A stretch of 64,000 nt of DNA from Escherichia coli (GCF_024298765.1 NZ_CP101210.1), one strand, 5' to 3'. Positions 25,795 to 51,463 are shown, numbered from the stretch's first letter. Made by a program: numbers and translations. The notes: generated by a model from the letters alone, not told the origin.

Positions 25795-27031
25795 TGAATA
25801 TTCGATTCTGCTGATTGATGATGATGCTGACGTGCTGGACGCCTACACACAGTTACTTGAACAGTCGGGCTATCGTGTTTTTGCCTGTAACAATCCTTTT
25901 GAGGCGCAGGCGTGGATACAACCAGACTGGCCAGGCATTGTGCTAAGTGATGTGTGTATGCCTGGCTGCTCTGGTATCGATTTGATGATGTTATTCCACC
26001 AGGATGATCAACAGCTCCCCATTCTGCTTATCACCGGGCACGGCGATGTGCCAATGGCAGTTGATGCGGTGAAAAAAGGCGCGTGGGATTTTTTGCAAAA
26101 ACCGGTCGATCCCGGCAAATTGCTTTCTCTGGTTGAAGAGGCACTACGCCAGCGTCAATCAATCATTGCGCGTCGTCAGTATTGCCAACAGACATTGCAG
26201 GTGGAGTTGATAGGGAGAAGTGAATGGATAAATCAGTATCGGCGACGTTTACAGCAGTTGTCTGAGACAGATATTGCCGTCTGGCTCTACGGTGCCCCTG
26301 GCACAGGACGGATGACCGGTGCACGTTATCTGCACCAATTTGGACGTAATGCACAAGGCGAATTTGTCTACCGCGAGCTGACACCAGACAATGCACCACA
26401 GCTTAATGATTTCATTGCGCTGGCTCAGGGGGGAACATTAGTGCTCAGCCATCCTGAACACCTGACGCGTGAACAGCAGTACCATCTGGTTCAGTTACAA
26501 AGCCAGGAACACAGACCTTTTCGCCTGATTGGTATTGGAGACACCTCGCTGGTCGAGCTGGCCGCCAGCAACCATATCATCGCGGAGCTCTATTACTGCT
26601 TTGCAATGACACAAATCGCTTGCCTGCCATTAACTCAACGCCCCGACGATATTGAACCACTGTTTCGCCACTACCTTTGTAAGGCATGTCAACGGCTTAA
26701 CCATCCTGTTCCGGAAGTGGGAAAAGAGATGTTCAAAGAGATGATGCGCCGCATGTGGCCAAATAATGTGCGAGAGCTGGCCAATGCAGCAGAACTGTTT
26801 ACTGTAGGAATATTACCGCTGGCAGAAACAGCAAACCCGTTGATGCACGTCGGAACCCCGGCACCGCTTGACAGGCGAGTGGAGGACGCTGAGCGACAGA
26901 TAATCACAGAGGCGCTTAATATCCATCAGGGGCGTATCAATGAGGTTGCTGAATATTTACAAATCCCGCGGAAAAAACTCTATCTCAGAATGAAAAAATA
27001 CGGTCTTAGCAAGGAGCATTATAAAAATTAA
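25775..27031 (+). CDS. pgtA: NtrC-family response regulator PgtA-like
   Basis: Receiver domain (ILLIDDDADVL...D...KPV), degenerate AAA+ central domain (GAPGTGR), C-terminal Fis-type HTH; alternative start ATG 25784. Confidence 0.75.
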   Translation: MWKMLSSEYSILLIDDDADVLDAYTQLLEQSGYRVFACNNPFEAQAWIQPDWPGIVLSDVCMPGCSGIDLMMLFHQDDQQLPILLITGHGDVPMAVDAVKKGAWDFLQKPVDPGKLLSLVEEALRQRQSIIARRQYCQQTLQVELIGRSEWINQYRRRLQQLSETDIAVWLYGAPGTGRMTGARYLHQFGRNAQGEFVYRELTPDNAPQLNDFIALAQGGTLVLSHPEHLTREQQYHLVQLQSQEHRPFRLIGIGDTSLVELAASNHIIAELYYCFAMTQIACLPLTQRPDDIEPLFRHYLCKACQRLNHPVPEVGKEMFKEMMRRMWPNNVRELANAAELFTVGILPLAETANPLMHVGTPAPLDRRVEDAERQIITEALNIHQGRINEVAEYLQIPRKKLYLRMKKYGLSKEHYKN

Positions 27032-28808: not shown

Positions 28809-29828
28809 TCAGCAGCTTTCACGTAAACATAAACAGGGCTCAATGAATATCTGATTGCTCCAGTTACCTTCTTTAATTCGTTCCAGCAAAACATTTCCTG
28901 CTTCCAGACCAATTTTCCTGTGAGGAACGGCCATTGTTGTTAATGATGGTTGGCAAACTTTGCTGACGTCACTGTCACCAAATCCTACTACGGCGAGCTC
29001 GTCTGGAACTTTGATCCGTCTTCGTTGACATTCATAGAGAACACCGCAGGCTAACTCATCTGACACACATACCAGGGCATCCAGTTCCGGCCATGCGAGC
29101 AAAAATTCCGGTAGTTGTGATGCTCCGGTGGAAAAAACAGGTGGCAGAGCAGCGTTAATAACACGGTTGGGAGACATATGATGGCGTAACATAGCTTTAT
29201 ACCATCCCTGTAAATGCTGCTGAAAGATCCACTGTTCCTGGTTAGCGCATAGCAAACCGATATTCTGATAACCACGTTGTACCAGCATATCCGTCAGCTC
29301 GAACATTGCTGCAACATTATCAATACCAATGTTGATATCTATCGGATCAGTACGAATGGCACCGATTTCTATAACAGGAATCGAGGCATTTTTGAGCAAG
29401 TGACGCACGGTACTATTATGCTCAACACTAAGCAAAATTGCTGCAGCGATATTAGAAGCCAGCAGGGTTTCCAGCAGTTTTTCTTCTTGTTCCAGACGAT
29501 GGCGTGACTCAGCCAGGATTATTTGATACCCCGCTGGTTGTAGCACATGTTGCAGCCCGGCAAACATTTCCGTGCATCCCGCTTCAGCCAGGTTTGGCAC
29601 GACCATTGCGATCGTGTGTGAAGATGCCGATGCCAGTGCGCTTGCAGTGAGGTTGGGCATATACCCTAATTCATTAACTGCGGCTTCAATCTTCTCCCTC
29701 AATTTATCTGAAACTTGTTCGGGAGTGCGTAACGCTCTGGATACAGTCATTGTGCCAACTCCCGCGAGTTGCGCGACATCAGCAATAGTGACTTTACCTG
29801 TACTACGACGTTTTCGGGTTATTGCCAT
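28809..29828 (-). CDS. LacI-family transcriptional repressor
   Basis: N-terminal HTH VTIADVAQLAGVGTMTVSRAL, periplasmic-binding-protein-like sugar-binding core; divergent from the PTS operon. Confidence 0.8.
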   Translation of the reverse strand: MAITRKRRSTGKVTIADVAQLAGVGTMTVSRALRTPEQVSDKLREKIEAAVNELGYMPNLTASALASASSHTIAMVVPNLAEAGCTEMFAGLQHVLQPAGYQIILAESRHRLEQEEKLLETLLASNIAAAILLSVEHNSTVRHLLKNASIPVIEIGAIRTDPIDINIGIDNVAAMFELTDMLVQRGYQNIGLLCANQEQWIFQQHLQGWYKAMLRHHMSPNRVINAALPPVFSTGASQLPEFLLAWPELDALVCVSDELACGVLYECQRRRIKVPDELAVVGFGDSDVSKVCQPSLTTMAVPHRKIGLEAGNVLLERIKEGNWSNQIFIEPCLCLRESC

Positions 29829-29960
29829 ACAAAATCCTGCTCAGCGACTACATATGGAGATCTTTTATTACTTATCATCAACGGCTTCCTGCACTGCCAG
29901 TAGCAGAGTATACCTCTTAATATCTGCCATAAGTCTGGATTTAATCAGTGAAATCTATTT

Positions 29961-30008
29961 TGATAGCGCTATCACAAATTCGAACAATACCTCCTGATAG
30001 CGCTATCT
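29961..30008. promoter_or_regulatory. Two LacI-type palindromic operators in the regulator / PTS intergenic region
   Basis: TGATAGCGCTATCA (29961-29974, perfect 14-bp palindrome) and TGATAGCGCTATCT (29995-30008), 34 bp apart. Confidence 0.5.
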
Positions 30009-30079
30009 TTGTGATATTGATCGCAGATATACCGTCGTTACTTGAATACATTCTGGTCATATAAATAAGAAATTAGGGG

Positions 30080-30529
30080 GTGGGAGTGCTTAATATCTGG
30101 CTTTCTGATTCAACAATCGCATTACGAAAGAATGCCGCAACCTGGCAGCAGGCATTAGATATCTGTGCCAGACCGTTACTGGATGCAGAGATAATTACGA
30201 CGGATTATCTCAGTGCGATAAAGACACAACATGAAAAACTGGGGCCTTATTATGTCCTGGCACCCGGGCTGGCCATGCCGCATGCCCGACCAGAAGAAGG
30301 GGCAAAAGGATTAGGTTTATCATTATTAAAACTTGAAGAAGGTGTCAGTTTTCATACAGAGGAATTTGATCCTGTAGATGTTATCATTTTACTTGCCGCA
30401 CCAGACAAACACAGTCATATCGAAATGATATCTGCACTGGCTGAGTTATTCTCCAGCGAAAAAGATTTACATGAATTGCATCAGGCTCGCAATGTGGAGG
30501 AAATAAAAAAGATAATTTCACGGTTCTGA
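30080..30529 (+). CDS. PTS EIIA component (ascorbate/mannitol-type, EIIA-2 fold)
   Basis: ~149 aa with phosphorylatable His motif LAMPHARPE; GTG start at 30080 or 30086. Confidence 0.75.
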   Translation: MGVLNIWLSDSTIALRKNAATWQQALDICARPLLDAEIITTDYLSAIKTQHEKLGPYYVLAPGLAMPHARPEEGAKGLGLSLLKLEEGVSFHTEEFDPVDVIILLAAPDKHSHIEMISALAELFSSEKDLHELHQARNVEEIKKIISRF

Positions 30530-30607
30530 TTACATTATAAATTCAGTCTTTTCACAACATTGCGCCGTTGCGTGATGGGACTTCTTCAACTTAAAATGGT
30601 GAATATA

Positions 30608-30880
30608 ATGAAAATTATGGCTATTTGTGGCTCAGGGCTTGGTAGTAGTTTTATGGTCGAAATGAATATTAAAAAAGTTCTGAAAAAAATGGATATAGAG
30701 GCGGAAGTGGAACATTCCGATCTCTCATCAGCAACGCCAGGGGCTGCCGATTTATTTGTGATGGCCAAAGATATTGCTGCCAGTGCCAGCGTACCGGAAA
30801 GTCAGTTGGTGGTTATCAACAACATCATTGATATTAATGAACTCGAAACGCAACTGCGTAACTGGTTAGCAAAACAATAA
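30608..30880 (+). CDS. PTS EIIB component (ascorbate-type, UlaB/SgaB-like)
   Basis: MKIMAICGSGLGSS... with the active-site Cys in the N-terminal CGxG motif; ~90 aa. Confidence 0.7.
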   Translation: MKIMAICGSGLGSSFMVEMNIKKVLKKMDIEAEVEHSDLSSATPGAADLFVMAKDIAASASVPESQLVVINNIIDINELETQLRNWLAKQ

Positions 30881-30896
30881 CCTTAATTGAAGCGAG

Positions 30897-32291
30897 GTGG
30901 ATATGTTTATCCTTGAAACGCTGAATTTTGTTGTTGATATACTTAAAGTGCCCGCGATACTGGTCGGCTTGATTGCCTTAATTGGTCTGGTTGCCCAGAA
31001 AAAATCTTTTTCAGATGTTGTTAAAGGTACAATTAAAACTATTCTCGGCTTTATTGTACTGGGCGGTGGTGCCACTGTTTTGGTTGGTTCGTTAAATCCT
31101 CTTGGGAGTATGTTTGAACATGCCTTTAATATTCAGGGCATCATTCCGAATAATGAGGCTATTGTTTCTATTGCGCTGGAAAAATATGGCGCATCGACGG
31201 CCCTTATTATGGCATTTGGTATGGTGGCGAATATTATTGTTGCCCGCTTTACCCGCCTTAAATATATCTTCCTGACCGGACACCACACATTTTACATGGC
31301 CTGCATGATTGGTGTGATTCTGACAGTGGCTGGTTTTGAAGGTATATCACTGGTCTTTACCGGTTCTCTTATTCTGGGACTTGTGATGGCATTTTTCCCG
31401 GCATTAGCACAACGCTATATGAAGCGTATTACGGGGAATGATGACATTGCTTTTGGTCACTTTGGCACTCTGGGATATGTACTTTCTGGCTGGATTGGCA
31501 GCGTGTGCGGTAAAGGTTCCCGCTCCACCGAAGAGATGAATTTGCCCAAAAATCTGAGCTTCCTGCGCGACAGTTCCATCTCTATTTCTCTTACGATGAT
31601 GGTGATTTATCTGATCATGGCGATCAGTGCTGGTCGTGAGTTCGTTGAAAGCCAGTTCAGTGGTGGTCAAAACTACCTTGTCTACGCCATCATAATGGCC
31701 ATCACCTTCGCTGCTGGTGTATTTATTATTCTGCAAGGCGTGCGTTTAATCCTTGCTGAAATAGTTCCGGCATTTACCGGGTTTTCAGAAAAGCTGGTGC
31801 CGAATGCCCGTCCGGCCCTCGATTGCCCGGTTGTGTATCCGTATGCGCCAAACGCAGTGTTAGTTGGTTTCTTGTTTAGCTTTTTTGGCGGTCTGGTAGG
31901 GCTATTTTTGTTGGGACAGATGAAACTGGTGTTGATTCTTCCGGGTGTCGTTCCTCACTTTTTTACCGGGGCGGCTGCTGGCGTATTTGGTAACGCTACG
32001 GGGGGACGTCGTGGCGCAATGATTGGTGCTTTTGCGAATGGCTTATTGATTACCTTCCTGCCAGTACTGTTATTGCCGGTTCTTGGGGCGATAGGCTTTG
32101 CTAATACGACCTTTTCCGATGCAGATTTTGGTGCTGTCGGCATCGTCCTCGGAAACCTGGCACGTTATCTCTCACCTTTTGCCATCACCGGACTTGTAGT
32201 AGCGCTATTTGTGCTGCTGGTTGCCTGGAACATTTTCGCCAGTAACAAAATCGCTGCCAAAGCGCAGAAGAAGAGTGGAGCCAAATCATGA
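30897..32291 (+). CDS. PTS EIIC component (ascorbate-type, UlaA/SgaT-like permease)
   Basis: 464 aa polytopic membrane protein with UlaA-family organisation; overlaps downstream transketolase gene start. Confidence 0.8.
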   Translation: MDMFILETLNFVVDILKVPAILVGLIALIGLVAQKKSFSDVVKGTIKTILGFIVLGGGATVLVGSLNPLGSMFEHAFNIQGIIPNNEAIVSIALEKYGASTALIMAFGMVANIIVARFTRLKYIFLTGHHTFYMACMIGVILTVAGFEGISLVFTGSLILGLVMAFFPALAQRYMKRITGNDDIAFGHFGTLGYVLSGWIGSVCGKGSRSTEEMNLPKNLSFLRDSSISISLTMMVIYLIMAISAGREFVESQFSGGQNYLVYAIIMAITFAAGVFIILQGVRLILAEIVPAFTGFSEKLVPNARPALDCPVVYPYAPNAVLVGFLFSFFGGLVGLFLLGQMKLVLILPGVVPHFFTGAAAGVFGNATGGRRGAMIGAFANGLLITFLPVLLLPVLGAIGFANTTFSDADFGAVGIVLGNLARYLSPFAITGLVVALFVLLVAWNIFASNKIAAKAQKKSGAKS

Positions 32292-33118
32292 ATGTTAAAG
32301 AATTGACTCAATTTGCACGGGATATACGTATCCAGACGCTTAAATCATTAACTCATCTCGGCTTCGGTCATTATGGTGGCAGCATGTCGGTTGTGGAAAC
32401 GCTGGCAGTGCTTTATGGCGCTGTAATGAAAATTGATCCTGCTGCTCCCGACTGGCCTGAGCGTGACTATTTTATCCTGTCCAAAGGACATGCCGGACCT
32501 GCTCTCTACAGTACTCTGGCGCTGAAAGGCTACTTTCCACTGGAAGAATTAAGCACCTTAAATCAGAACGGAACCCGCTTACCAAGTCATCCGGATCGGC
32601 TAAAAACGTGTGGTGTTGATAGCACCACAGGATCGCTGGGGCAGGGGATATCCATTGCCGGAGGGATGGCGCTGTCGCATAAACTGGCGGGGCGCAAGAA
32701 TCGGGTTTTTTGTATTGTCGGCGATGGCGAACTTAATGAAGGCCAATGTTGGGAAGCTTTCCAGTTTATCGCGCATCATCGTTTGAATAACCTCACTGTG
32801 TTTGTGGACTGGAACAAACAGCAGCTTGATGGTCAACTGGATGAAATTATTAATCCATTTGATTTGGAAGGAAAATTCCGGGCTTTCGGTTTTGATGTCG
32901 TGACAGTGAAGGGCGATGATATTGAGGGCTTGTTGAATGTAGTTAAACCTGTCCTGCCAGCTGAGGCCAGACCGAGAGTGGTCATTCTCGATAGCATTAA
33001 AGGGCAGGGGGTGCCGTGTCTCGAGCAACTCAGTAATTCTCATCACTTACGCCTCACAGAAGAGATGAAGGGGACGCTAAACGAAACAATTCGCCAACTG
33101 GAGGCTATGCATGATTAA
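32288..33118 (+). CDS. Transketolase, N-terminal (thiamine-diphosphate-binding) subunit
   Basis: 276 aa, motifs SKGHAGPALY and GSLGQGISIAGGMA...VGDGELNEGQ characteristic of split transketolase N subunits. Confidence 0.8.
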   Translation: MNVKELTQFARDIRIQTLKSLTHLGFGHYGGSMSVVETLAVLYGAVMKIDPAAPDWPERDYFILSKGHAGPALYSTLALKGYFPLEELSTLNQNGTRLPSHPDRLKTCGVDSTTGSLGQGISIAGGMALSHKLAGRKNRVFCIVGDGELNEGQCWEAFQFIAHHRLNNLTVFVDWNKQQLDGQLDEIINPFDLEGKFRAFGFDVVTVKGDDIEGLLNVVKPVLPAEARPRVVILDSIKGQGVPCLEQLSNSHHLRLTEEMKGTLNETIRQLEAMHD

Positions 33119-34064
33119 TCTCGCACCGGCAGGACAAAAAGACAGCATTGAAATGCGCAAAGTTTATGCAGATTTTATCGCGCAACAGAGTAAAAACGTC
33201 AGTTCTGTCATTGCTCTTGAGGCTGATTTAATGAGTTCCATGGCAATGGACAGCGTGGCGCAGGATTATCCAGATCACGTCATTAATTGCGGCATTATGG
33301 AAGCCAATGTTATCGGCACAGCTGCAGGGCTGGCCTTAACCGGGCGCAAGCCATTCGTGCATACCTTTACCGCATTTGCCAGTCGTCGCTGTTTTGATCA
33401 ACTCTTTATGTCGCTTGATTACCAGGGCGCTAACGTCAAAGTTATAGCTTCTGATGCGGGTGTTGCTGCTTGCCACAATGGCGGAACACATATGTCATTT
33501 GAAGATATGGGAATTGTGCGCGGGCTGGCGCATTCGGTGGTGATGGAGATGACAGATGCCGTAATGTTCAGCGATATCTTGCGTCAACTCGTTGCACTGG
33601 AAGGATTTTATTGGATTCGTACCATTCGGAAGCAAGCAGCGAGTATTTACGCACCAGGTACAACCTTTACAATTGGCAAAGGGCAGGTATTACGTGAAGG
33701 TACGGATGTCACCTTAATTGCTAATGGCATTATGGTGGTGGAAGCCCTGGAGGCCGCACGTCAACTTGAGCTGGCTGGGGTAAGTGTAGCGGTGATTGAT
33801 ATGTTTACGCTCAAACCCGTTGATCGGATGTTAATTAAAAATTATGCCGAAAAAACAGGACGGATCGTAACATGTGAAAACCATAGTATTCATAATGGAT
33901 TAGGTTCAGCGGTTGCTGAAGTGCTTGTAGAAACTTGTCCTGTGCCCATGCGTCGGGTGGGGGTTAAAGAGCGGTATGGCCAGGTTGGAACTCAGGACTT
34001 TTTACAGAGAGAGTACGGGTTAACCGCGCAAGATATTGTGGCGGCAGCCAGAGAGCTATTGTAA
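33111..34064 (+). CDS. Transketolase, C-terminal (pyrimidine-binding) subunit
   Basis: 317 aa, overlaps N-subunit gene by 8 bp; transketolase Pyr and C-terminal domains. Confidence 0.8.
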   Translation: MINLAPAGQKDSIEMRKVYADFIAQQSKNVSSVIALEADLMSSMAMDSVAQDYPDHVINCGIMEANVIGTAAGLALTGRKPFVHTFTAFASRRCFDQLFMSLDYQGANVKVIASDAGVAACHNGGTHMSFEDMGIVRGLAHSVVMEMTDAVMFSDILRQLVALEGFYWIRTIRKQAASIYAPGTTFTIGKGQVLREGTDVTLIANGIMVVEALEAARQLELAGVSVAVIDMFTLKPVDRMLIKNYAEKTGRIVTCENHSIHNGLGSAVAEVLVETCPVPMRRVGVKERYGQVGTQDFLQREYGLTAQDIVAAARELL

Positions 34065-35290: not shown

Positions 35291-36550
35291 ATGCTTAAAA
35301 GACGTGATGCTTTTTTAAAGAAAAGCGCGCTGGCAGTGAGTGTGGCCCTGCTGCTCTCATCTCAGGCTTTGGCTCATAAAACAATTACTGATTCAACGGC
35401 GGGTATTATCTGGATTGATAATGGCACTCAGTCACTTGAAAGTGCAAGTGTGATTGACAGAAATGGAAATGCTAACGATGGTGGTAGTGTTACTGGAAAA
35501 AACTTTGCTGTTGGTTCCGATGCAATAATTTGGGATGCGGATAAATCCATGGCAACAGGAAATAAGACAGCTGTTTTTAATGCAGACAACAGTGTCGCTC
35601 TGGGGTATGGCTCTCAGGTGAATGGAGAAAGCAATGTACTTTCTGTAGGGGCCGGTCCTTCAGGATATGGATTTTCAGTTGATGGTGCACCGGAAACCCG
35701 CCGGATTATAAATGTTTCAGATGGTGTTAAGGATAGTGATGCGGCCACAAAAGGACAGATGGACAACGCCATTGCAGGTGCTGTACGGGTGTCGGGGGAT
35801 GCCCTGCGCGGTGAGATAGGAGCTGTCTACCGTGATGCTGTTTCTCATACTGACAGTCAGGTCACAGCAGTACGTGATGAACTGAAGGCAGAGGGAGACA
35901 GTCTGCGCGGTGAGATAGGCGGTGTATACAGAGATGCCCGTGCTCATACTGACAGTCAGGTTACAGCAGTACGTGATGAACTCAGCAGGGATATTATTGC
36001 AGGCACATCGGCAGCGGTGGCGTATACGGATGCATCTTCTCTTGCTCTTCAGGATGAAATAAAAGAAAAAGCGGATGAAACAGTTCAGGTTTCCCGGGCT
36101 TATACAGATAAAAGTGTACGGGATGCCCGTAAAGAAGCGAAAAGCCAGGCAGAACATCTCAGCGATGTGCTTGTGAAGAACAGGGCGCAGACGGATGCAG
36201 CAATAGCCTCAAATACAGCAGCGATAAGGAATAACAGTCATCGTCTGGATTTGACGGAAGCCTGGCAGAAGATGGCGACAGAGAGAATGAATAATATGCA
36301 GGAGCAGATTAAAGAGAACCGGAAGGAGTTAAGGGAGAGTGCAGCCCAGAGCGCGGCACTGGCAGGTCTTTTCCAGCCATACAGTGTTGGAAAATTTAAC
36401 GCGACAGCAGCCGTTGGTGGTTACCGTGATGAGCAGGCCATTGCGGTGGGCGTGGGCTACCGTTTCACAGAGAATGTGGCAGGAAAAGTTGCAGTTGCTG
36501 CAGGTGGGTCATCCGCATCGTGGAATGCTGGTGTGAATTTTGAGTTCTGA
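35291..36550 (+). CDS. Trimeric autotransporter adhesin (YadA-like, type Vc)
   Basis: Signal peptide [28 protein letters not shown], head repeats ([23 protein letters not shown]), coiled-coil stalk, C-terminal YadA anchor ...[47 protein letters not shown]. Confidence 0.8.
35804..35982 (+). repeat. In-frame tandem duplication (2 x 99 bp, 33-aa period) inside the adhesin stalk
   Basis: [27 protein letters not shown] / [27 protein letters not shown]; nucleotide units nearly identical. Confidence 0.7.
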
Positions 36551-49492: not shown

Positions 49493-51463
49493 ATGTATAT
49501 GAATGTAATCAGAACTGTCATTTGTACATTAATTATAGTCCCGGTGGGACTACAGGCAGCGACCAGTCATTCTTCTATGGCTAAAGATACAATCACCATT
49601 GTCGCGACAGGAAATCAGAACACGGTATTTGAAACGCCGTCGATGGTCAGTGTCGTCACGAATGACACACCGTGGAGTCAGAATGCGGTTACATCGGCCG
49701 GCATGCTGAAAGGTGTTGCCGGTCTCAGCCAGACTGGTGCAGGACGGACCAATGGGCAGACCTTTAATCTACGCGGCTATGACAAAAGCGGGGTACTTGT
49801 TCTTGTTGACGGCGTCCGCCAACTCAGTGACATGGCAAAAAGCAGTGGCACTTATCTGGATCCGGCTCTTGTCAAACGTATCGAAGTTGTCCGCGGGCCA
49901 AACTCCAGTCTGTACGGCAGTGGCGGGCTGGGAGGTGTAGTGGACTTCAGAACTGCCGATGCAGCAGATTTCCTTCCCCCCGGAGAGACAAACGGTTTAA
50001 GTCTGTGGGGAAATATTGCCAGTGGTGACCACAGCACAGGCTCGGGGCTCACCTGGTTCGGTAAAACCGGAAAAACAGATGCGCTCCTTTCTGTCATTAT
50101 GCGTAAAAGAGGTAATATCTATCAAAGTGATGGTGAGCGCGCACCTAACAAGGAAAAACCTGCAGCCCTGTTTGCGAAAGGCTCTGTCGGTATAACAGAC
50201 AGTAACAAAGCAGGTGCCAGCTTGCGTCTCTACCGGAATAACACCACTGAACCGGGCAATCCCACTCAGACACATGGTGACAGCGGCCTGCGTGACAGAA
50301 AAACAGTACAAAATGACGTACAGTTCTGGTACCAGTACGCTCCTGTGGATAACAGCCTCATCAATGTAAAGTCAACGTTATATCTCAGTGATATCACTAT
50401 CAAGACAAACGGTCACAACAAAACGGCAGAATGGAGAAACAACAGAACCTCCGGTGTTAATGTTGTCAACAGGAGTCATACTCTGATTTTTCCGGGAGCC
50501 CATCAGTTAAGTTATGGCGCTGAATATTACCGTCAGCAGCAGAAGCCAGAAGGCTCTGCCACACTATATCCGGAAGGAAATATTGACTTTACATCGTTGT
50601 ATTTCCAGGATGAAATGACAATGAAAAGCTACCCTGTTAACATTATCGTCGGTTCCCGCTATGACCGGTACAAGAGCTTCAATCCCCGTGCCGGAGAACT
50701 GAAAGCCGAACGCCTGTCCCCAAGGGCGGCGATTTCAGTCTCACCGACAGACTGGCTGATGATGTACGGCTCCATATCCTCTGCATTCCGAGCGCCCACA
50801 ATGGCAGAAATGTACAGGGATGATGTACATTTTTACCGCAAGGGTAAACCCAATTACTGGGTTCCTAACCTTAATCTGAAACCAGAAAATAACATCACCC
50901 GTGAGATTGGCGCAGGTATTCAACTGGATGGCCTGCTTACAGACAATGACCGGCTGCAGTTAAAAGGCGGATATTTCGGAACGGATGCCAGAAACTATAT
51001 TGCCACACGCGTGGATATGAAACGGATGCGTTCTTATTCTTATAATGTATCCCGGGCCCGTATCTGGGGATGGGATATGCAGGGAAATTACCAGTCTGAT
51101 TATGTTGACTGGGTGCTTTCTTATAACCGGACGGAAAGTATGGATGCCAGCAGCAGGGAATGGCTGGGCTCCGGCAATCCTGACACACTTATCAGTGACA
51201 TCAGCATACCTGTTGGTCATAGAGGCGTTTATGCCGGATGGCGTGCTGAACTTTCAGCATCAGCCACGCATGTGAAAAAAGGCGACTCCTATCAGGCTGG
51301 CTATGCCATACATTCCTTTTCACTGTCTTATAAGCCTGTAAGTGTTAAAGGCTTTGAGGCGTCAGTAACTCTGGATAATGCCTTCAACAAGCTTGCCATG
51401 AATGGCAAAGGTGTGCCGCTTTCAGGCCGAACTGTCAGTCTTTATACCCGTTATCAGTGGTAA
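49493..51463 (+). CDS. TonB-dependent outer-membrane receptor, heme-receptor-like (ChuA/ShuA/ZnuD relatives)
   Basis: 656 aa, signal peptide, plug motifs (VLVLVDGVRQ, RIEVVRGPNSSLYGSGGLGGVV), barrel ending ...YTRYQW; ~50 percent identical to ChuA by eye in conserved blocks. Confidence 0.85.
   Translation: MYMNVIRTVICTLIIVPVGLQAATSHSSMAKDTITIVATGNQNTVFETPSMVSVVTNDTPWSQNAVTSAGMLKGVAGLSQTGAGRTNGQTFNLRGYDKSGVLVLVDGVRQLSDMAKSSGTYLDPALVKRIEVVRGPNSSLYGSGGLGGVVDFRTADAADFLPPGETNGLSLWGNIASGDHSTGSGLTWFGKTGKTDALLSVIMRKRGNIYQSDGERAPNKEKPAALFAKGSVGITDSNKAGASLRLYRNNTTEPGNPTQTHGDSGLRDRKTVQNDVQFWYQYAPVDNSLINVKSTLYLSDITIKTNGHNKTAEWRNNRTSGVNVVNRSHTLIFPGAHQLSYGAEYYRQQQKPEGSATLYPEGNIDFTSLYFQDEMTMKSYPVNIIVGSRYDRYKSFNPRAGELKAERLSPRAAISVSPTDWLMMYGSISSAFRAPTMAEMYRDDVHFYRKGKPNYWVPNLNLKPENNITREIGAGIQLDGLLTDNDRLQLKGGYFGTDARNYIATRVDMKRMRSYSYNVSRARIWGWDMQGNYQSDYVDWVLSYNRTESMDASSREWLGSGNPDTLISDISIPVGHRGVYAGWRAELSASATHVKKGDSYQAGYAIHSFSLSYKPVSVKGFEASVTLDNAFNKLAMNGKGVPLSGRTVSLYTRYQW

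What the first reader, a model, noticed from the sequence alone, without database searches (positions are those of the whole stretch)
28809..34064. LacI-regulated ascorbate-type PTS operon translationally coupled to a split transketolase
EIIA, EIIB, EIIC and the two transketolase subunit genes overlap or abut (EIIC/tktN overlap 4 bp, tktN/tktC overlap 8 bp), indicating one operon. The divergent LacI-family gene faces two 14-bp palindromes TGATAGCGCTATCA. The combination implies uptake and phosphorylation of an unidentified sugar or sugar acid whose product enters the pentose phosphate pathway directly via a dedicated transketolase. As far as I recall, similar PTS-transketolase sets exist in Salmonella, but the substrate is not established.
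Basis: partly seen in the sequence, partly recalled or inferred. Interest (0 to 1): 0.55.

Follow-up and report, generated by a model that had tools for sequence, protein, structure and literature searches.

The report
Orphan sugar PTS with split transketolase
This is an island-borne E. coli copy of a six-gene cassette found across enterobacteria (a repressor, a three-part sugar-import system and a two-piece transketolase); it matches Salmonella STM2340-STM2345 and is already annotated and partly studied, but the sugar it handles is still unknown.

Summary
The genes are real and at the stated coordinates: a LacI-family regulator (28809-29828, minus strand) faces EIIA, EIIB, an Asc-type EIIC, tktN and tktC (30086-34064).

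- **Overlaps.** The 4-bp and 8-bp overlaps are correct. EIIA/EIIB are 78 nt apart and EIIB/EIIC 22 nt apart.
- **Palindromes.** One is exact. The other matches 13 of 14 bases.
- **Conservation.** In 77 loci from Escherichia to Gilliamella the first operator never changes. The second is kept in 76, 34-36 bp away. It is followed directly by a conserved CRP-like site and a -10 element spaced as in a class II CRP promoter.
- **Origin.** The cassette normally lies between yfcD and yfcC-pta. By gene order and 72-94% identity it corresponds to Salmonella STM2340-STM2345 (TktC; the regulator is called PagR). In E. coli it sits on a pathogenicity island: 132 of 5426 complete genomes carry it and 233 keep only an IS1-truncated stub.
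- **Not the ula system.** EIIC is 29% identical to UlaA, and there is no UlaR, ulaG or ulaDEF.
- **Transketolase.** Cofactor residues are intact, but Asp115 and Asn123 replace a conserved His and Asp. A subfamily found mostly in accessory sugar clusters shares this.

The system is already known and its substrate is not. Interest is modest.

The parts
28809..29828 (-). LacI/GalR-family transcription regulator (339 aa), counterpart of Salmonella STM2345 ('PagR')
   Evidence: ORF. Best NCBIfam hits are P. aeruginosa-type GntR, IdnR, E. coli GntR and CytR, all below their cut-offs. The Salmonella counterpart has Pfam LacI + Peripla_BP domains and is 88% identical.
29907..29913 (-). Conserved AGTATAC block, which reads TATACT on the minus strand; possible -10 element of the regulator's own promoter
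   Evidence: Conserved in alignment A1. The promoter assignment is inference only.
29961..29974 (.). Operator O1, perfect palindrome TGATAGCGCTATCA, centred about -91.5 from the predicted operon start
   Evidence: Exact match. Invariant in 77 of 77 orthologous loci.
29995..30008 (.). Operator O2, TGATAGCGCTATCT (13 of 14 bases of the palindrome), centred about -57.5
   Evidence: TGRTAGCGCTAYCT is kept in 76 of 77 loci at 34-36 bp from O1.
30010..30025 (.). CRP-like site TGTGAtattgaTCGCA, one base after O2
   Evidence: 74 of 76 loci have 2 or fewer mismatches to TGTGA-N6-TCACA at this fixed position, while the N6 spacer varies freely (alignment).
30047..30052 (+). Predicted -10 hexamer TACATT (TAAAGT or TAGAGT in most other species); predicted transcription start near 30059
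   Evidence: T30047 and A30048 are invariant and T30052 is at least 90% conserved. The hexamer starts 29.5-30.5 nt after the CRP-site centre in 72 of 76 loci, which is class II geometry. No transcript data.
30086..30529 (+). PTS EIIA (147 aa, PTS_EIIA_2 type); predicted phosphorylated residue His66 in the LAMPHA motif
   Evidence: The Salmonella counterpart carries PF00359. The His assignment is by motif only.
30608..30880 (+). PTS EIIB (90 aa, PTS_IIB type); predicted phosphorylated residue Cys7
   Evidence: The Salmonella counterpart carries PF02302.
30903..32291 (+). PTS EIIC of the L-ascorbate (Asc, UlaA/SgaT) family, 462 aa
   Evidence: NCBIfam NF009549 scores 989 bits against a cut-off of 890. 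29% identical to the solved UlaA structure 4RP8. 77-97% identical across Enterobacterales.
32288..33118 (+). Transketolase N-terminal (thiamine-diphosphate-binding) subunit, 276 aa
   Evidence: Closest solved structure is the split transketolase 6YAK (220 bits). The His28, His68, His102, GDG/Asn and His252 positions align with human transketolase.
33111..34064 (+). Transketolase C-terminal (pyrimidine-binding plus C-terminal domain) subunit, 317 aa, with atypical Asp115, His122 and Asn123
   Evidence: Closest solved structure 6YAJ (242 bits). The residue-by-residue alignment shows SDAGVAACHNGGTHM where canonical enzymes have (T/S)H.G....GEDG.(S/T)(H/Q). The motif is conserved in the enterobacterial orthologues read.

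Best explanation
This is a self-contained uptake-and-entry module for one sugar, probably a ketose, whose identity is not known.

**Repression (inferred).** With no inducer, dimers of the LacI-family regulator sit on O1 and O2. O2 directly abuts a CRP site centred about 41.5 bp upstream of the predicted start. A repressor bound there should prevent CRP or the RNA polymerase alpha subunit from activating the promoter. This is the arrangement of GalR at the O_E operator of gal P1.

**Induction (inferred).** When glucose is absent (cAMP-CRP present) and the inducer is present (the sugar or its phosphate), the five genes are transcribed together. EIIC, tktN and tktC are translationally coupled.

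**Transport (inferred by homology).** The general PTS proteins pass phosphate to EIIA (His66), then to EIIB (Cys7). EIIC imports the sugar, which is phosphorylated on entry.

**Entry into metabolism.** The two-subunit transketolase moves a two-carbon unit between this sugar phosphate and a partner. That yields ordinary pentose-phosphate or glycolytic intermediates, so no other dedicated enzyme is needed.

**Shown here:** gene content, synteny, conservation of the sites, and intact cofactor residues. **From the literature:** the Salmonella counterpart is an active transketolase. **Inferred:** repression, CRP dependence, the direction of flux and the substrate.
For: - **Conserved six-gene order.** About 76 of 80 species share it, with no other gene consistently attached. 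The flanks are housekeeping genes: yfcD on one side and yfcC-pta-ackA on the other.
- **Regulatory sites.** O1 and O2 are invariant or nearly so, while the surrounding intergenic DNA averages 39% column identity. The CRP-like site and the -10 element have class II spacing in 72-74 of 76 loci.
- **PTS parts.** All three are present with family-level matches.
- **Transketolase.** Cofactor and catalytic residues are conserved against human transketolase and the split transketolase 6YAK/6YAJ.
- **Salmonella counterpart.** It is 86-88% identical and is listed as a third transketolase gene of Salmonella (PMC8360588; PMC12651746, citing Shaw 2018).
- **Same logic elsewhere.** Related split transketolases sit beside other uptake-plus-kinase sets: PTS in L094, ABC transporter plus FGGY kinase in L093, and TRAP transporter plus PFK-like kinase in L097.
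- **Gilliamella.** It keeps regulator-EIIA-EIIB-EIIC without the transketolase, which suggests the PTS product can be handled by ordinary metabolism.
Against: - No substrate, inducer, transcript start or DNA-binding result exists for this cassette, here or in the held literature.
- The operators lie upstream of the predicted promoter core rather than over it, so simple occlusion is not demonstrated.
- A weak alternative sigma-70 match (TTGATA-17-AACAAT) would instead place O1 on the -35 and O2 on the start site.
- Two substrate-contacting residues of the transketolase are atypical, so its real reaction may not be the textbook one.
- In Salmonella the regulator is described as a virulence (SPI-2) regulator (PMC12413039), which a plain sugar repressor does not explain.
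- In E. coli more genomes carry the IS1-deleted stub (233) than the intact cassette (132). This argues against strong selection for it in this species.
Confidence: 0.6

Rival explanations
1. It is a second uptake system for L-ascorbate, or for dehydroascorbate or a breakdown product. The transketolase only adds capacity to process the xylulose-5-phosphate made by the chromosomal ula enzymes.
For: - EIIC belongs to the Asc family and NCBI names it 'PTS ascorbate transporter subunit IIC'.
- The similarly organised Streptococcus pneumoniae ula2 operon (EIIB-EIIC-tktN-tktC) is induced 2-3-fold by ascorbic acid (PMC4324149).
- A pneumococcal mutant lacking the main ascorbate PTS still grows partly on ascorbate (PMC3302838).
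Against: - EIIC is only 29% identical to UlaA.
- The regulator is LacI-type, not UlaR.
- No ulaG or ulaDEF is linked in any of the 80 loci.
- The pneumococcal induction is weak and could come from a breakdown product.
- The pneumococcal authors of PMC3302838 themselves proposed ketopentoses instead.
Confidence: 0.12
2. The transketolase carries out a non-standard cleavage of an unusual ketose phosphate, branched or short-chain. This would resemble AptA/AptB acting on apulose-4-phosphate, so the cassette would be a two-step route for a rare plant or host sugar.
For: - Asp115 replaces the phosphate-binding His (E. coli TktA His461) and Asn123 replaces the hydroxyl-binding Asp (Asp469). Both are conserved in the orthologues read.
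- Among the nearest 50%-identity representatives, the Asp/Asn pattern accounts for about 43 of the roughly 140 longer than 280 aa that were aligned.
- 6 of 7 informative contexts for that pattern are accessory sugar clusters.
- E. coli already has one dedicated split transketolase of this kind, in the D-apiose cluster (PMC13001218; L083).
Against: - AptA/AptB are only 39% and 28% identical and carry a different motif.
- One member with the Asp/Asn pattern sits among housekeeping genes (L089).
- Gilliamella keeps the PTS without any linked transketolase.
Confidence: 0.2
3. The main role is not catabolic. The cassette supplies a stress or stationary-phase transketolase isozyme, and the regulator and PTS proteins act chiefly in signalling or virulence control.
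For: - In Salmonella tktC expression is said to be regulated in a similar manner to tktB, which is under RpoS control (PMC12651746).
- STM2345/PagR is reported to raise SPI-2 expression and promote systemic infection (PMC12413039; PMC7873081).
- In E. coli the cassette rides on a pathogenicity island together with ireA, fec and pgt.
Against: - A complete EIIA-EIIB-EIIC set with a full-length permease, 77-97% conserved across free-living and plant-associated genera, points to real transport.
- A CRP-type promoter is typical of carbon catabolism.
- E. coli lacks SPI-2.
Confidence: 0.08

Closest known systems
Salmonella enterica STM2340-STM2345 (TktC split transketolase, Asc-type PTS, regulator STM2345/PagR)
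   Same: - Same six genes in the same order and orientation.
- Protein identities: regulator 88%, EIIA 72%, EIIB 94%, EIIC 93%, TktN 88%, TktC 86%.
- The same O1, O2 and CRP-like sites.
   Different: In Salmonella, and in most Enterobacterales, the cassette lies in the core chromosome between yfcD and yfcC-pta-ackA. Here it is cargo of an IS-rich ExPEC/APEC pathogenicity island next to pgtABCP and a YadA-like adhesin. The assignment of STM numbers rests on gene order, not on a look-up of the LT2 record.
Streptococcus pneumoniae ula2 operon (ulaR2-ulaB2-ulaA2-tktN-tktC; SP2127-SP2131)
   Same: An Asc-type PTS followed by the two transketolase subunit genes in one transcript. The substrate is not established: ketopentoses have been proposed, and ascorbate induces it weakly (PMC4324149; PMC3302838).
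   Different: The pneumococcal operon has no separate EIIA. It is switched on by a PRD-containing activator encoded inside the operon, not by a divergent LacI-type repressor, and its predicted regulatory site is different. The sequences were not compared here.
E. coli ulaABC / ulaG / ulaDEF / UlaR L-ascorbate system
   Same: The same PTS family and the same three-protein EIIA/EIIB/EIIC layout. The EIIC is related to the solved UlaA structure.
   Different: 29% identity to UlaA. There is no lactonase, decarboxylase or epimerases, no DeoR-type UlaR, and a transketolase is present instead.
AptA/AptB apulose-4-phosphate transketolase of the D-apiose cluster (E. coli ST131/SE15)
   Same: A two-subunit transketolase with overlapping genes, dedicated to a sugar catabolic cluster, with a non-canonical motif in the C-terminal subunit (PMC13001218).
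   Different: 39% and 28% identity, and a different motif (LNAG...GPLASTHH). It is linked to an ABC transporter, an FGGY kinase and oxidoreductases rather than a PTS, and lies at a different chromosomal site.
gal operon P1 control region (GalR at O_E, CRP at -41.5); own knowledge
   Same: A LacI-family operator immediately upstream of a class II CRP site. Here the predicted centres are -57.5 for O2 and -41.5 for CRP.
   Different: No downstream operator was found. The second site lies further upstream (-91.5) at about 34 bp, too close for a gal-type loop. Nothing has been tested.

Membership tests
PTS L-ascorbate (Asc, TC 4.A.7) family | EIIC of the UlaA/SgaT type | tested here: met
   NF009549 scores 989 bits against a cut-off of 890. 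PF03611 in the Salmonella counterpart. 177 bits to the UlaA structure 4RP8.
PTS L-ascorbate (Asc, TC 4.A.7) family | Separate EIIB (PTS_IIB, N-terminal Cys) and EIIA (PTS_EIIA_2, active-site His) | tested here: met
   Family hits. PF02302 and PF00359 in the counterparts. Cys7 in MKIMAICGSG and His66 in LAMPHA are visible in the translations. Phosphorylation itself was not tested.
ula/sga L-ascorbate utilisation system | UlaR (DeoR-family) regulator | tested here: not met
   The regulator is LacI-family.
ula/sga L-ascorbate utilisation system | Linked ulaG lactonase and ulaD/E/F | tested here: not met
   Absent from the window around the cassette and from the flanks of the loci analysed.
ula/sga L-ascorbate utilisation system | EIIC orthologous to UlaA | tested here: not met
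   29% identity over 385 aligned residues.
ula/sga L-ascorbate utilisation system | Transport of L-ascorbate | not testable with these tools
   Needs uptake or growth assays.
Transketolase (thiamine-diphosphate dependent, split type) | Cofactor and metal binding (GDG...N), active-site His residues in the N-terminal subunit, cofactor-activating Glu in the C-terminal subunit | tested here: met
   Alignments to human transketolase and to 6YAK/6YAJ. Positions located.
Transketolase (thiamine-diphosphate dependent, split type) | Canonical substrate pocket: Arg, Ser and Arg, plus His (E. coli TktA 461) for the phosphate and Asp (469) for the hydroxyl | tested here: not met
   Arg16, Ser45 and Arg173 are present. 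Asp115 replaces the His and Asn123 replaces the Asp, in the same register with no gaps. Residue roles come from published transketolase structures (own knowledge).
Transketolase (thiamine-diphosphate dependent, split type) | Transketolase activity | not testable with these tools
   Reported for the Salmonella counterpart (Shaw 2018, which is not held). It is cited in PMC8360588 and PMC12651746.
Salmonella STM2340-STM2345 cassette (orthology) | High identity of all six proteins, with the same order and orientation | tested here: met
   72-94% identity with the same layout.
Salmonella STM2340-STM2345 cassette (orthology) | Same chromosomal position (yfcD / yfcC-pta) | tested here: not met
   In the window it lies between pgtA and a YadA-like adhesin gene on a pathogenicity island. 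The native position is seen in 62-67 other species.
LacI/GalR repressors | N-terminal helix-turn-helix plus a periplasmic-binding-protein-like effector domain | tested here: met
   Full-length matches to 17 LacI-family models. PF00356 plus PF00532/PF13377 in the counterpart.
LacI/GalR repressors | Palindromic operator of about 14-16 bp with a central CG near the regulated promoter | tested here: met
   TGATAGCGCTATCA occurs twice and is phylogenetically invariant. Binding was not tested.
AptA/AptB apulose-4-phosphate transketolase | Close sequence relationship and linkage to apulose kinase and apiose genes | tested here: not met
   39% and 28% identity. No kinase or oxidoreductase is linked.

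The most novel reading that the evidence does not exclude
The cassette would be a complete two-protein-system pathway (PTS plus transketolase) for a free ketose not known to be a PTS substrate. Candidates are sedoheptulose, D-xylulose or D-ribulose, or an erythrulose- or apulose-like sugar of plant or host origin. Its transketolase would belong to a distinct 'catabolic' subfamily whose remodelled pocket (Asp115/Asn123) gives it a donor specificity different from the housekeeping enzymes.
Probability: 0.3. Interest if true: 0.55.

Novelty: already known. Interest (0 to 1): 0.3.

Why it matters
The cassette is widespread in Enterobacterales, including Salmonella, Klebsiella, Enterobacter, Citrobacter and Serratia. 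It also travels on an ExPEC/APEC pathogenicity island, yet nobody has said which nutrient it takes up.

Identifying the sugar would assign a function to an orphan PTS. It would also explain why these bacteria keep a third transketolase, and might link the Salmonella virulence regulator PagR to a metabolic signal.

The conserved operators, the CRP site and the two atypical active-site residues described here give concrete handles: reporter screens, ligand-binding tests and point mutants. For E. coli itself the importance looks limited. Only 2.4% of complete genomes carry the cassette, and more genomes have lost it to an IS1 deletion.

Tried and rejected
- **Is this the 'tkt1' island of APEC O1?** No. 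tkt1 is a full-length transketolase on a 16-kb island between metE and ysgA, with a glucose-type PTS (PMC3349570).
- **Is it the E. coli D-apiose cluster (aptA/aptB)?** No. That is a different locus, with only 39% and 28% identity and a different motif.
- **Extra catabolic genes nearby.** Clustering of flanking ORFs in the related loci found only housekeeping neighbours: yfcD, yfcE/F/G, folX, yfcH, pta and ackA.
- **Literature search for a substrate or operator.**
  - Searches on the operator sequence, STM locus tags, tktC/tktN, 'split transketolase' and apulose gave no substrate assignment.
  - Shaw 2018 (JBC), the apiose paper of Carter 2018 and the PagR paper are not held. Statements about them rest on citing papers and my own knowledge.
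- **First homologue search.** It returned only relatives at 75% identity or more, so the representative search was used for diversity.
- **Three context look-ups were uninformative.** The contigs were too short (L087, L091 and L092).
- **Third palindrome-like hit.** The match at 50389-50402 has 2 mismatches and has lost the central CG. By coordinates it lies inside the ORF at 49493-51463. I treated it as chance.
- **Terminator after tktC.** The scan found no plus-strand terminator-like site downstream of tktC.
- **Not attempted.** Structure prediction, because a single-chain model would not settle substrate specificity.

Full report
**What is in the sequence.** Between 28809 and 34064 the window holds six ORFs:
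- a 339-aa LacI-family regulator on the minus strand (28809-29828);
- on the plus strand, EIIA (30086-30529 with the RefSeq start), EIIB (30608-30880), EIIC (30903-32291), a transketolase N-terminal subunit (32288-33118) and a C-terminal subunit (33111-34064).

EIIA/EIIB are 78 nt apart and EIIB/EIIC 22 nt apart, so only the last three genes are translationally coupled.

TGATAGCGCTATCA is exact at 29961-29974. The second site, 29995-30008, ends in T and so matches 13 of 14 bases. Three matches at up to 2 mismatches occur in the window against 0.22 expected.

**Protein families.**
- The regulator matches LacI-family models over its full length. The best are the Pseudomonas-type GntR, IdnR, E. 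coli GntR and CytR, all below their cut-offs, so it is none of these.
- EIIC passes the cut-off of a narrow NCBIfam model (NF009549, 989 bits against 890). It is only 29% identical to the solved UlaA ascorbate permease.
- The transketolase subunits are closest to the split transketolase of Carboxydothermus hydrogenoformans (6YAK/6YAJ), then to human transketolase.

**Where it comes from.**
- The DNA is E. coli. 132 of 5426 complete genomes carry at least 80% of the cassette, nearly all at about 100% identity, always on the chromosome.
- In APEC IMT5155 it lies in an IS-rich island with ireA and a YadA-like adhesin. The paper on that genome calls the island PAI I5155. [quoted passage not shown]
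- The window also carries fecI, fecA, pgtP, pgtB and pgtA, which fits that island.
- Another 233 genomes keep only the last 179 bp of tktC. In the one stub inspected it lies next to a degenerate IS1, which points to an IS1-mediated deletion.

**Comparative genomics.**
- A scan of one genome per species with EIIC returned 80 loci in Enterobacterales at 77-97% identity.
- The order regulator / EIIA-EIIB-EIIC-tktN-tktC is kept in about 76 of them.
- The usual flanks are yfcD on the regulator side and (yfcC-)pta-ackA on the transketolase side. No other catabolic gene is consistently attached.
- In Salmonella enterica the order is ackA, pta, yfcC, tktC, tktN, EIIC, EIIB, EIIA, regulator, yfcD. Counting from ackA = STM2337 and pta = STM2338 (my own knowledge of the LT2 numbering), this gives STM2340-STM2345.
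- The window proteins are 72-94% identical to the Salmonella ones.
- Citing papers list tktC as a third Salmonella transketolase gene (PMC8360588; PMC12651746). They name STM2345 as PagR, a regulator that raises SPI-2 expression (PMC12413039; PMC7873081). The primary papers are not held.

**The control region.**
- In 77 intergenic regions O1 is invariant. O2 (TGRTAGCGCTAYCT) is present in 76, at 34-36 bp from O1. Overall column identity of the aligned region is only 39%.
- One base after O2 comes TGTGA-N6-TCACA. It has 2 or fewer mismatches in 74 of 76 loci and a freely varying spacer, which is the signature of a CRP site.
- A -10-like hexamer (TAAAGT or TAGAGT; TACATT in the window) starts 29.5-30.5 nt after the centre of that site in 72 of 76 loci. 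That is what a class II CRP promoter centred at -41.5 requires.
- In window coordinates: CRP site 30010-30025, -10 at 30047-30052, predicted start near 30059, O2 centre near -57.5 and O1 near -91.5.
- A LacI-family operator just upstream of a class II CRP site is the layout of gal P1 (own knowledge). The likely mechanism is therefore interference with CRP or the polymerase alpha subunit rather than occlusion of the core promoter. This is inference.
- A weak alternative promoter match would put O1 on the -35 and O2 on the start, but its -10 is poorly conserved.

**The transketolase.**
- Alignment to human transketolase and to 6YAK/6YAJ shows the cofactor-binding GDG/Asn, the N-terminal-subunit histidines, the activating Glu, and Arg16/Ser45/Arg173 all in place.
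- In the C-terminal subunit, canonical enzymes have (T/S)H.G....GEDG.(S/T)(H/Q). This protein has SDAGVAACHNGGTHM in the same register.
- So Asp115 stands where E. coli TktA has the phosphate-binding His461, and Asn123 where it has Asp469 (residue roles are own knowledge).
- The motif is conserved in the enterobacterial orthologues read.
- Among the nearest 50%-identity representatives, the roughly 140 longer than 280 aa were aligned. About 43 of them show the Asp/Asn pattern.
- Contexts for that pattern were informative in seven cases:
  - a PTS-transketolase cassette (L094);
  - an ABC transporter plus FGGY kinase (L093);
  - an ABC transporter plus DeoC-type aldolase (L095);
  - a LacI regulator plus PFK-like kinase plus TRAP transporter (L097);
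  - alcohol dehydrogenases (L088, L096);
  - one housekeeping-like setting (L089).
- The pattern therefore marks a mostly 'catabolic' subfamily, but it does not prove an unusual reaction.
- The E. coli apiose enzymes AptA/AptB are only 39% and 28% identical and have a different motif.

**Substrate.**
- Nothing in the held literature assigns one.
- For the similarly organised pneumococcal operon, ketopentoses were proposed without validation (PMC3302838), and a 2-3-fold induction by ascorbic acid was measured (PMC4324149).
- Because no other enzyme is linked, the phosphorylated product should itself be a transketolase substrate.
- Gilliamella keeps the regulator and PTS but no linked transketolase. 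This hints that the product is an ordinary intermediate.
- Candidates are xylulose, ribulose and sedoheptulose. A rarer ketose would fit if the atypical pocket matters.

**Verdict.** This is an island-borne copy of a known enterobacterial cassette that is annotated, mentioned in print and partly characterised in Salmonella. The added value here is the footprinted O1-O2-CRP promoter, the native locus, the loss pattern in E. coli and the atypical active-site residues. The open question is the substrate. Interest is modest.

Noticed in passing
window 33886-34064 (last 179 bp of tktC); L086 6001-6179: 233 complete E. coli genomes keep only this 3' stub of tktC. In the one genome inspected (EC1515) it lies directly next to a degenerate IS1, with the same ProQ/FinO-side and YadA-side neighbours. 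More genomes carry the stub than the intact cassette (132).
   Followed up: partly
window 20808-27031: A phosphoglycerate transport system lies just upstream of the cassette. pgtP, pgtB and pgtA match above the NCBIfam cut-offs, and the ORF between them is probably pgtC. In IMT5155 the DNA upstream of the cassette is different (ireA and IS elements).
   Followed up: partly
window 7023-14568: A ferric dicitrate uptake cluster. fecI and fecA are confirmed by NCBIfam, and the following ORFs have the sizes expected for fecB, fecC, fecD and fecE. This fits the tRNA-Phe-associated island PAI I5155 described for APEC IMT5155.
   Followed up: partly
window 35291-36550: The YadA-like trimeric autotransporter adhesin gene appears to be 33 codons (99 bp) shorter than the copy annotated in IMT5155 and EC1515. 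This comes from coordinate arithmetic. The translation shows an internal repeat of about 33 aa, so the cause may be repeat-number variation. The two copies were not aligned.
   Followed up: no
window 29907-29913: An AGTATAC block is conserved in the intergenic region of most species. It reads TATACT on the minus strand, so it may be the -10 of the regulator's own promoter. O1 would then lie near -67 of that promoter, leaving autoregulation unclear.
   Followed up: partly
window 50389-50402: A third palindrome-like match, TGATATCACTATCA (2 mismatches, central CG lost). By coordinates it lies inside the 656-aa ORF at 49493-51463, which corresponds to the TonB-dependent receptor gene annotated in IMT5155. 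Probably chance.
   Followed up: no
L081 5908-9359 (Gilliamella sp.): The bee-gut symbiont has the regulator (49% identity), EIIA, EIIB and EIIC (77%) with O1 but no O2 and no transketolase genes. The next ORF downstream (183 aa) is not a transketolase and was not identified.
   Followed up: partly
L094 1-7942 (unidentified metagenomic contig): A homologous EIIA-EIIB-EIIC-tktN-tktC cassette with the same Asp/His-Asn motif lies next to a divergent DeoR regulator, a PdxA-family dehydrogenase, a GntP permease and a 3-hydroxyacid-dehydrogenase-like gene. From my own knowledge, such genes occur in four-carbon acid-sugar (threonate/erythronate) clusters. This is a possible link to ascorbate breakdown products.
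   Followed up: no
hits H1/H16 and H24 (E. coli 23CRST013 and GF60): In two strains the cassette matches in two pieces, with an ISVsa5 (IS4-like) or ISEc8 (IS66-like) transposase annotated within the matched span. This suggests further IS disruption of the cassette.
   Followed up: no
window 38267-41502: A second accessory sugar module lies on the same island. It comprises a glucose/maltose-type PTS EIIBC (NCBIfam hits below cut-off), a gene annotated in IMT5155 as N-acetylmannosamine-6-phosphate 2-epimerase, and a divergent RpiR-family regulator.
   Followed up: partly
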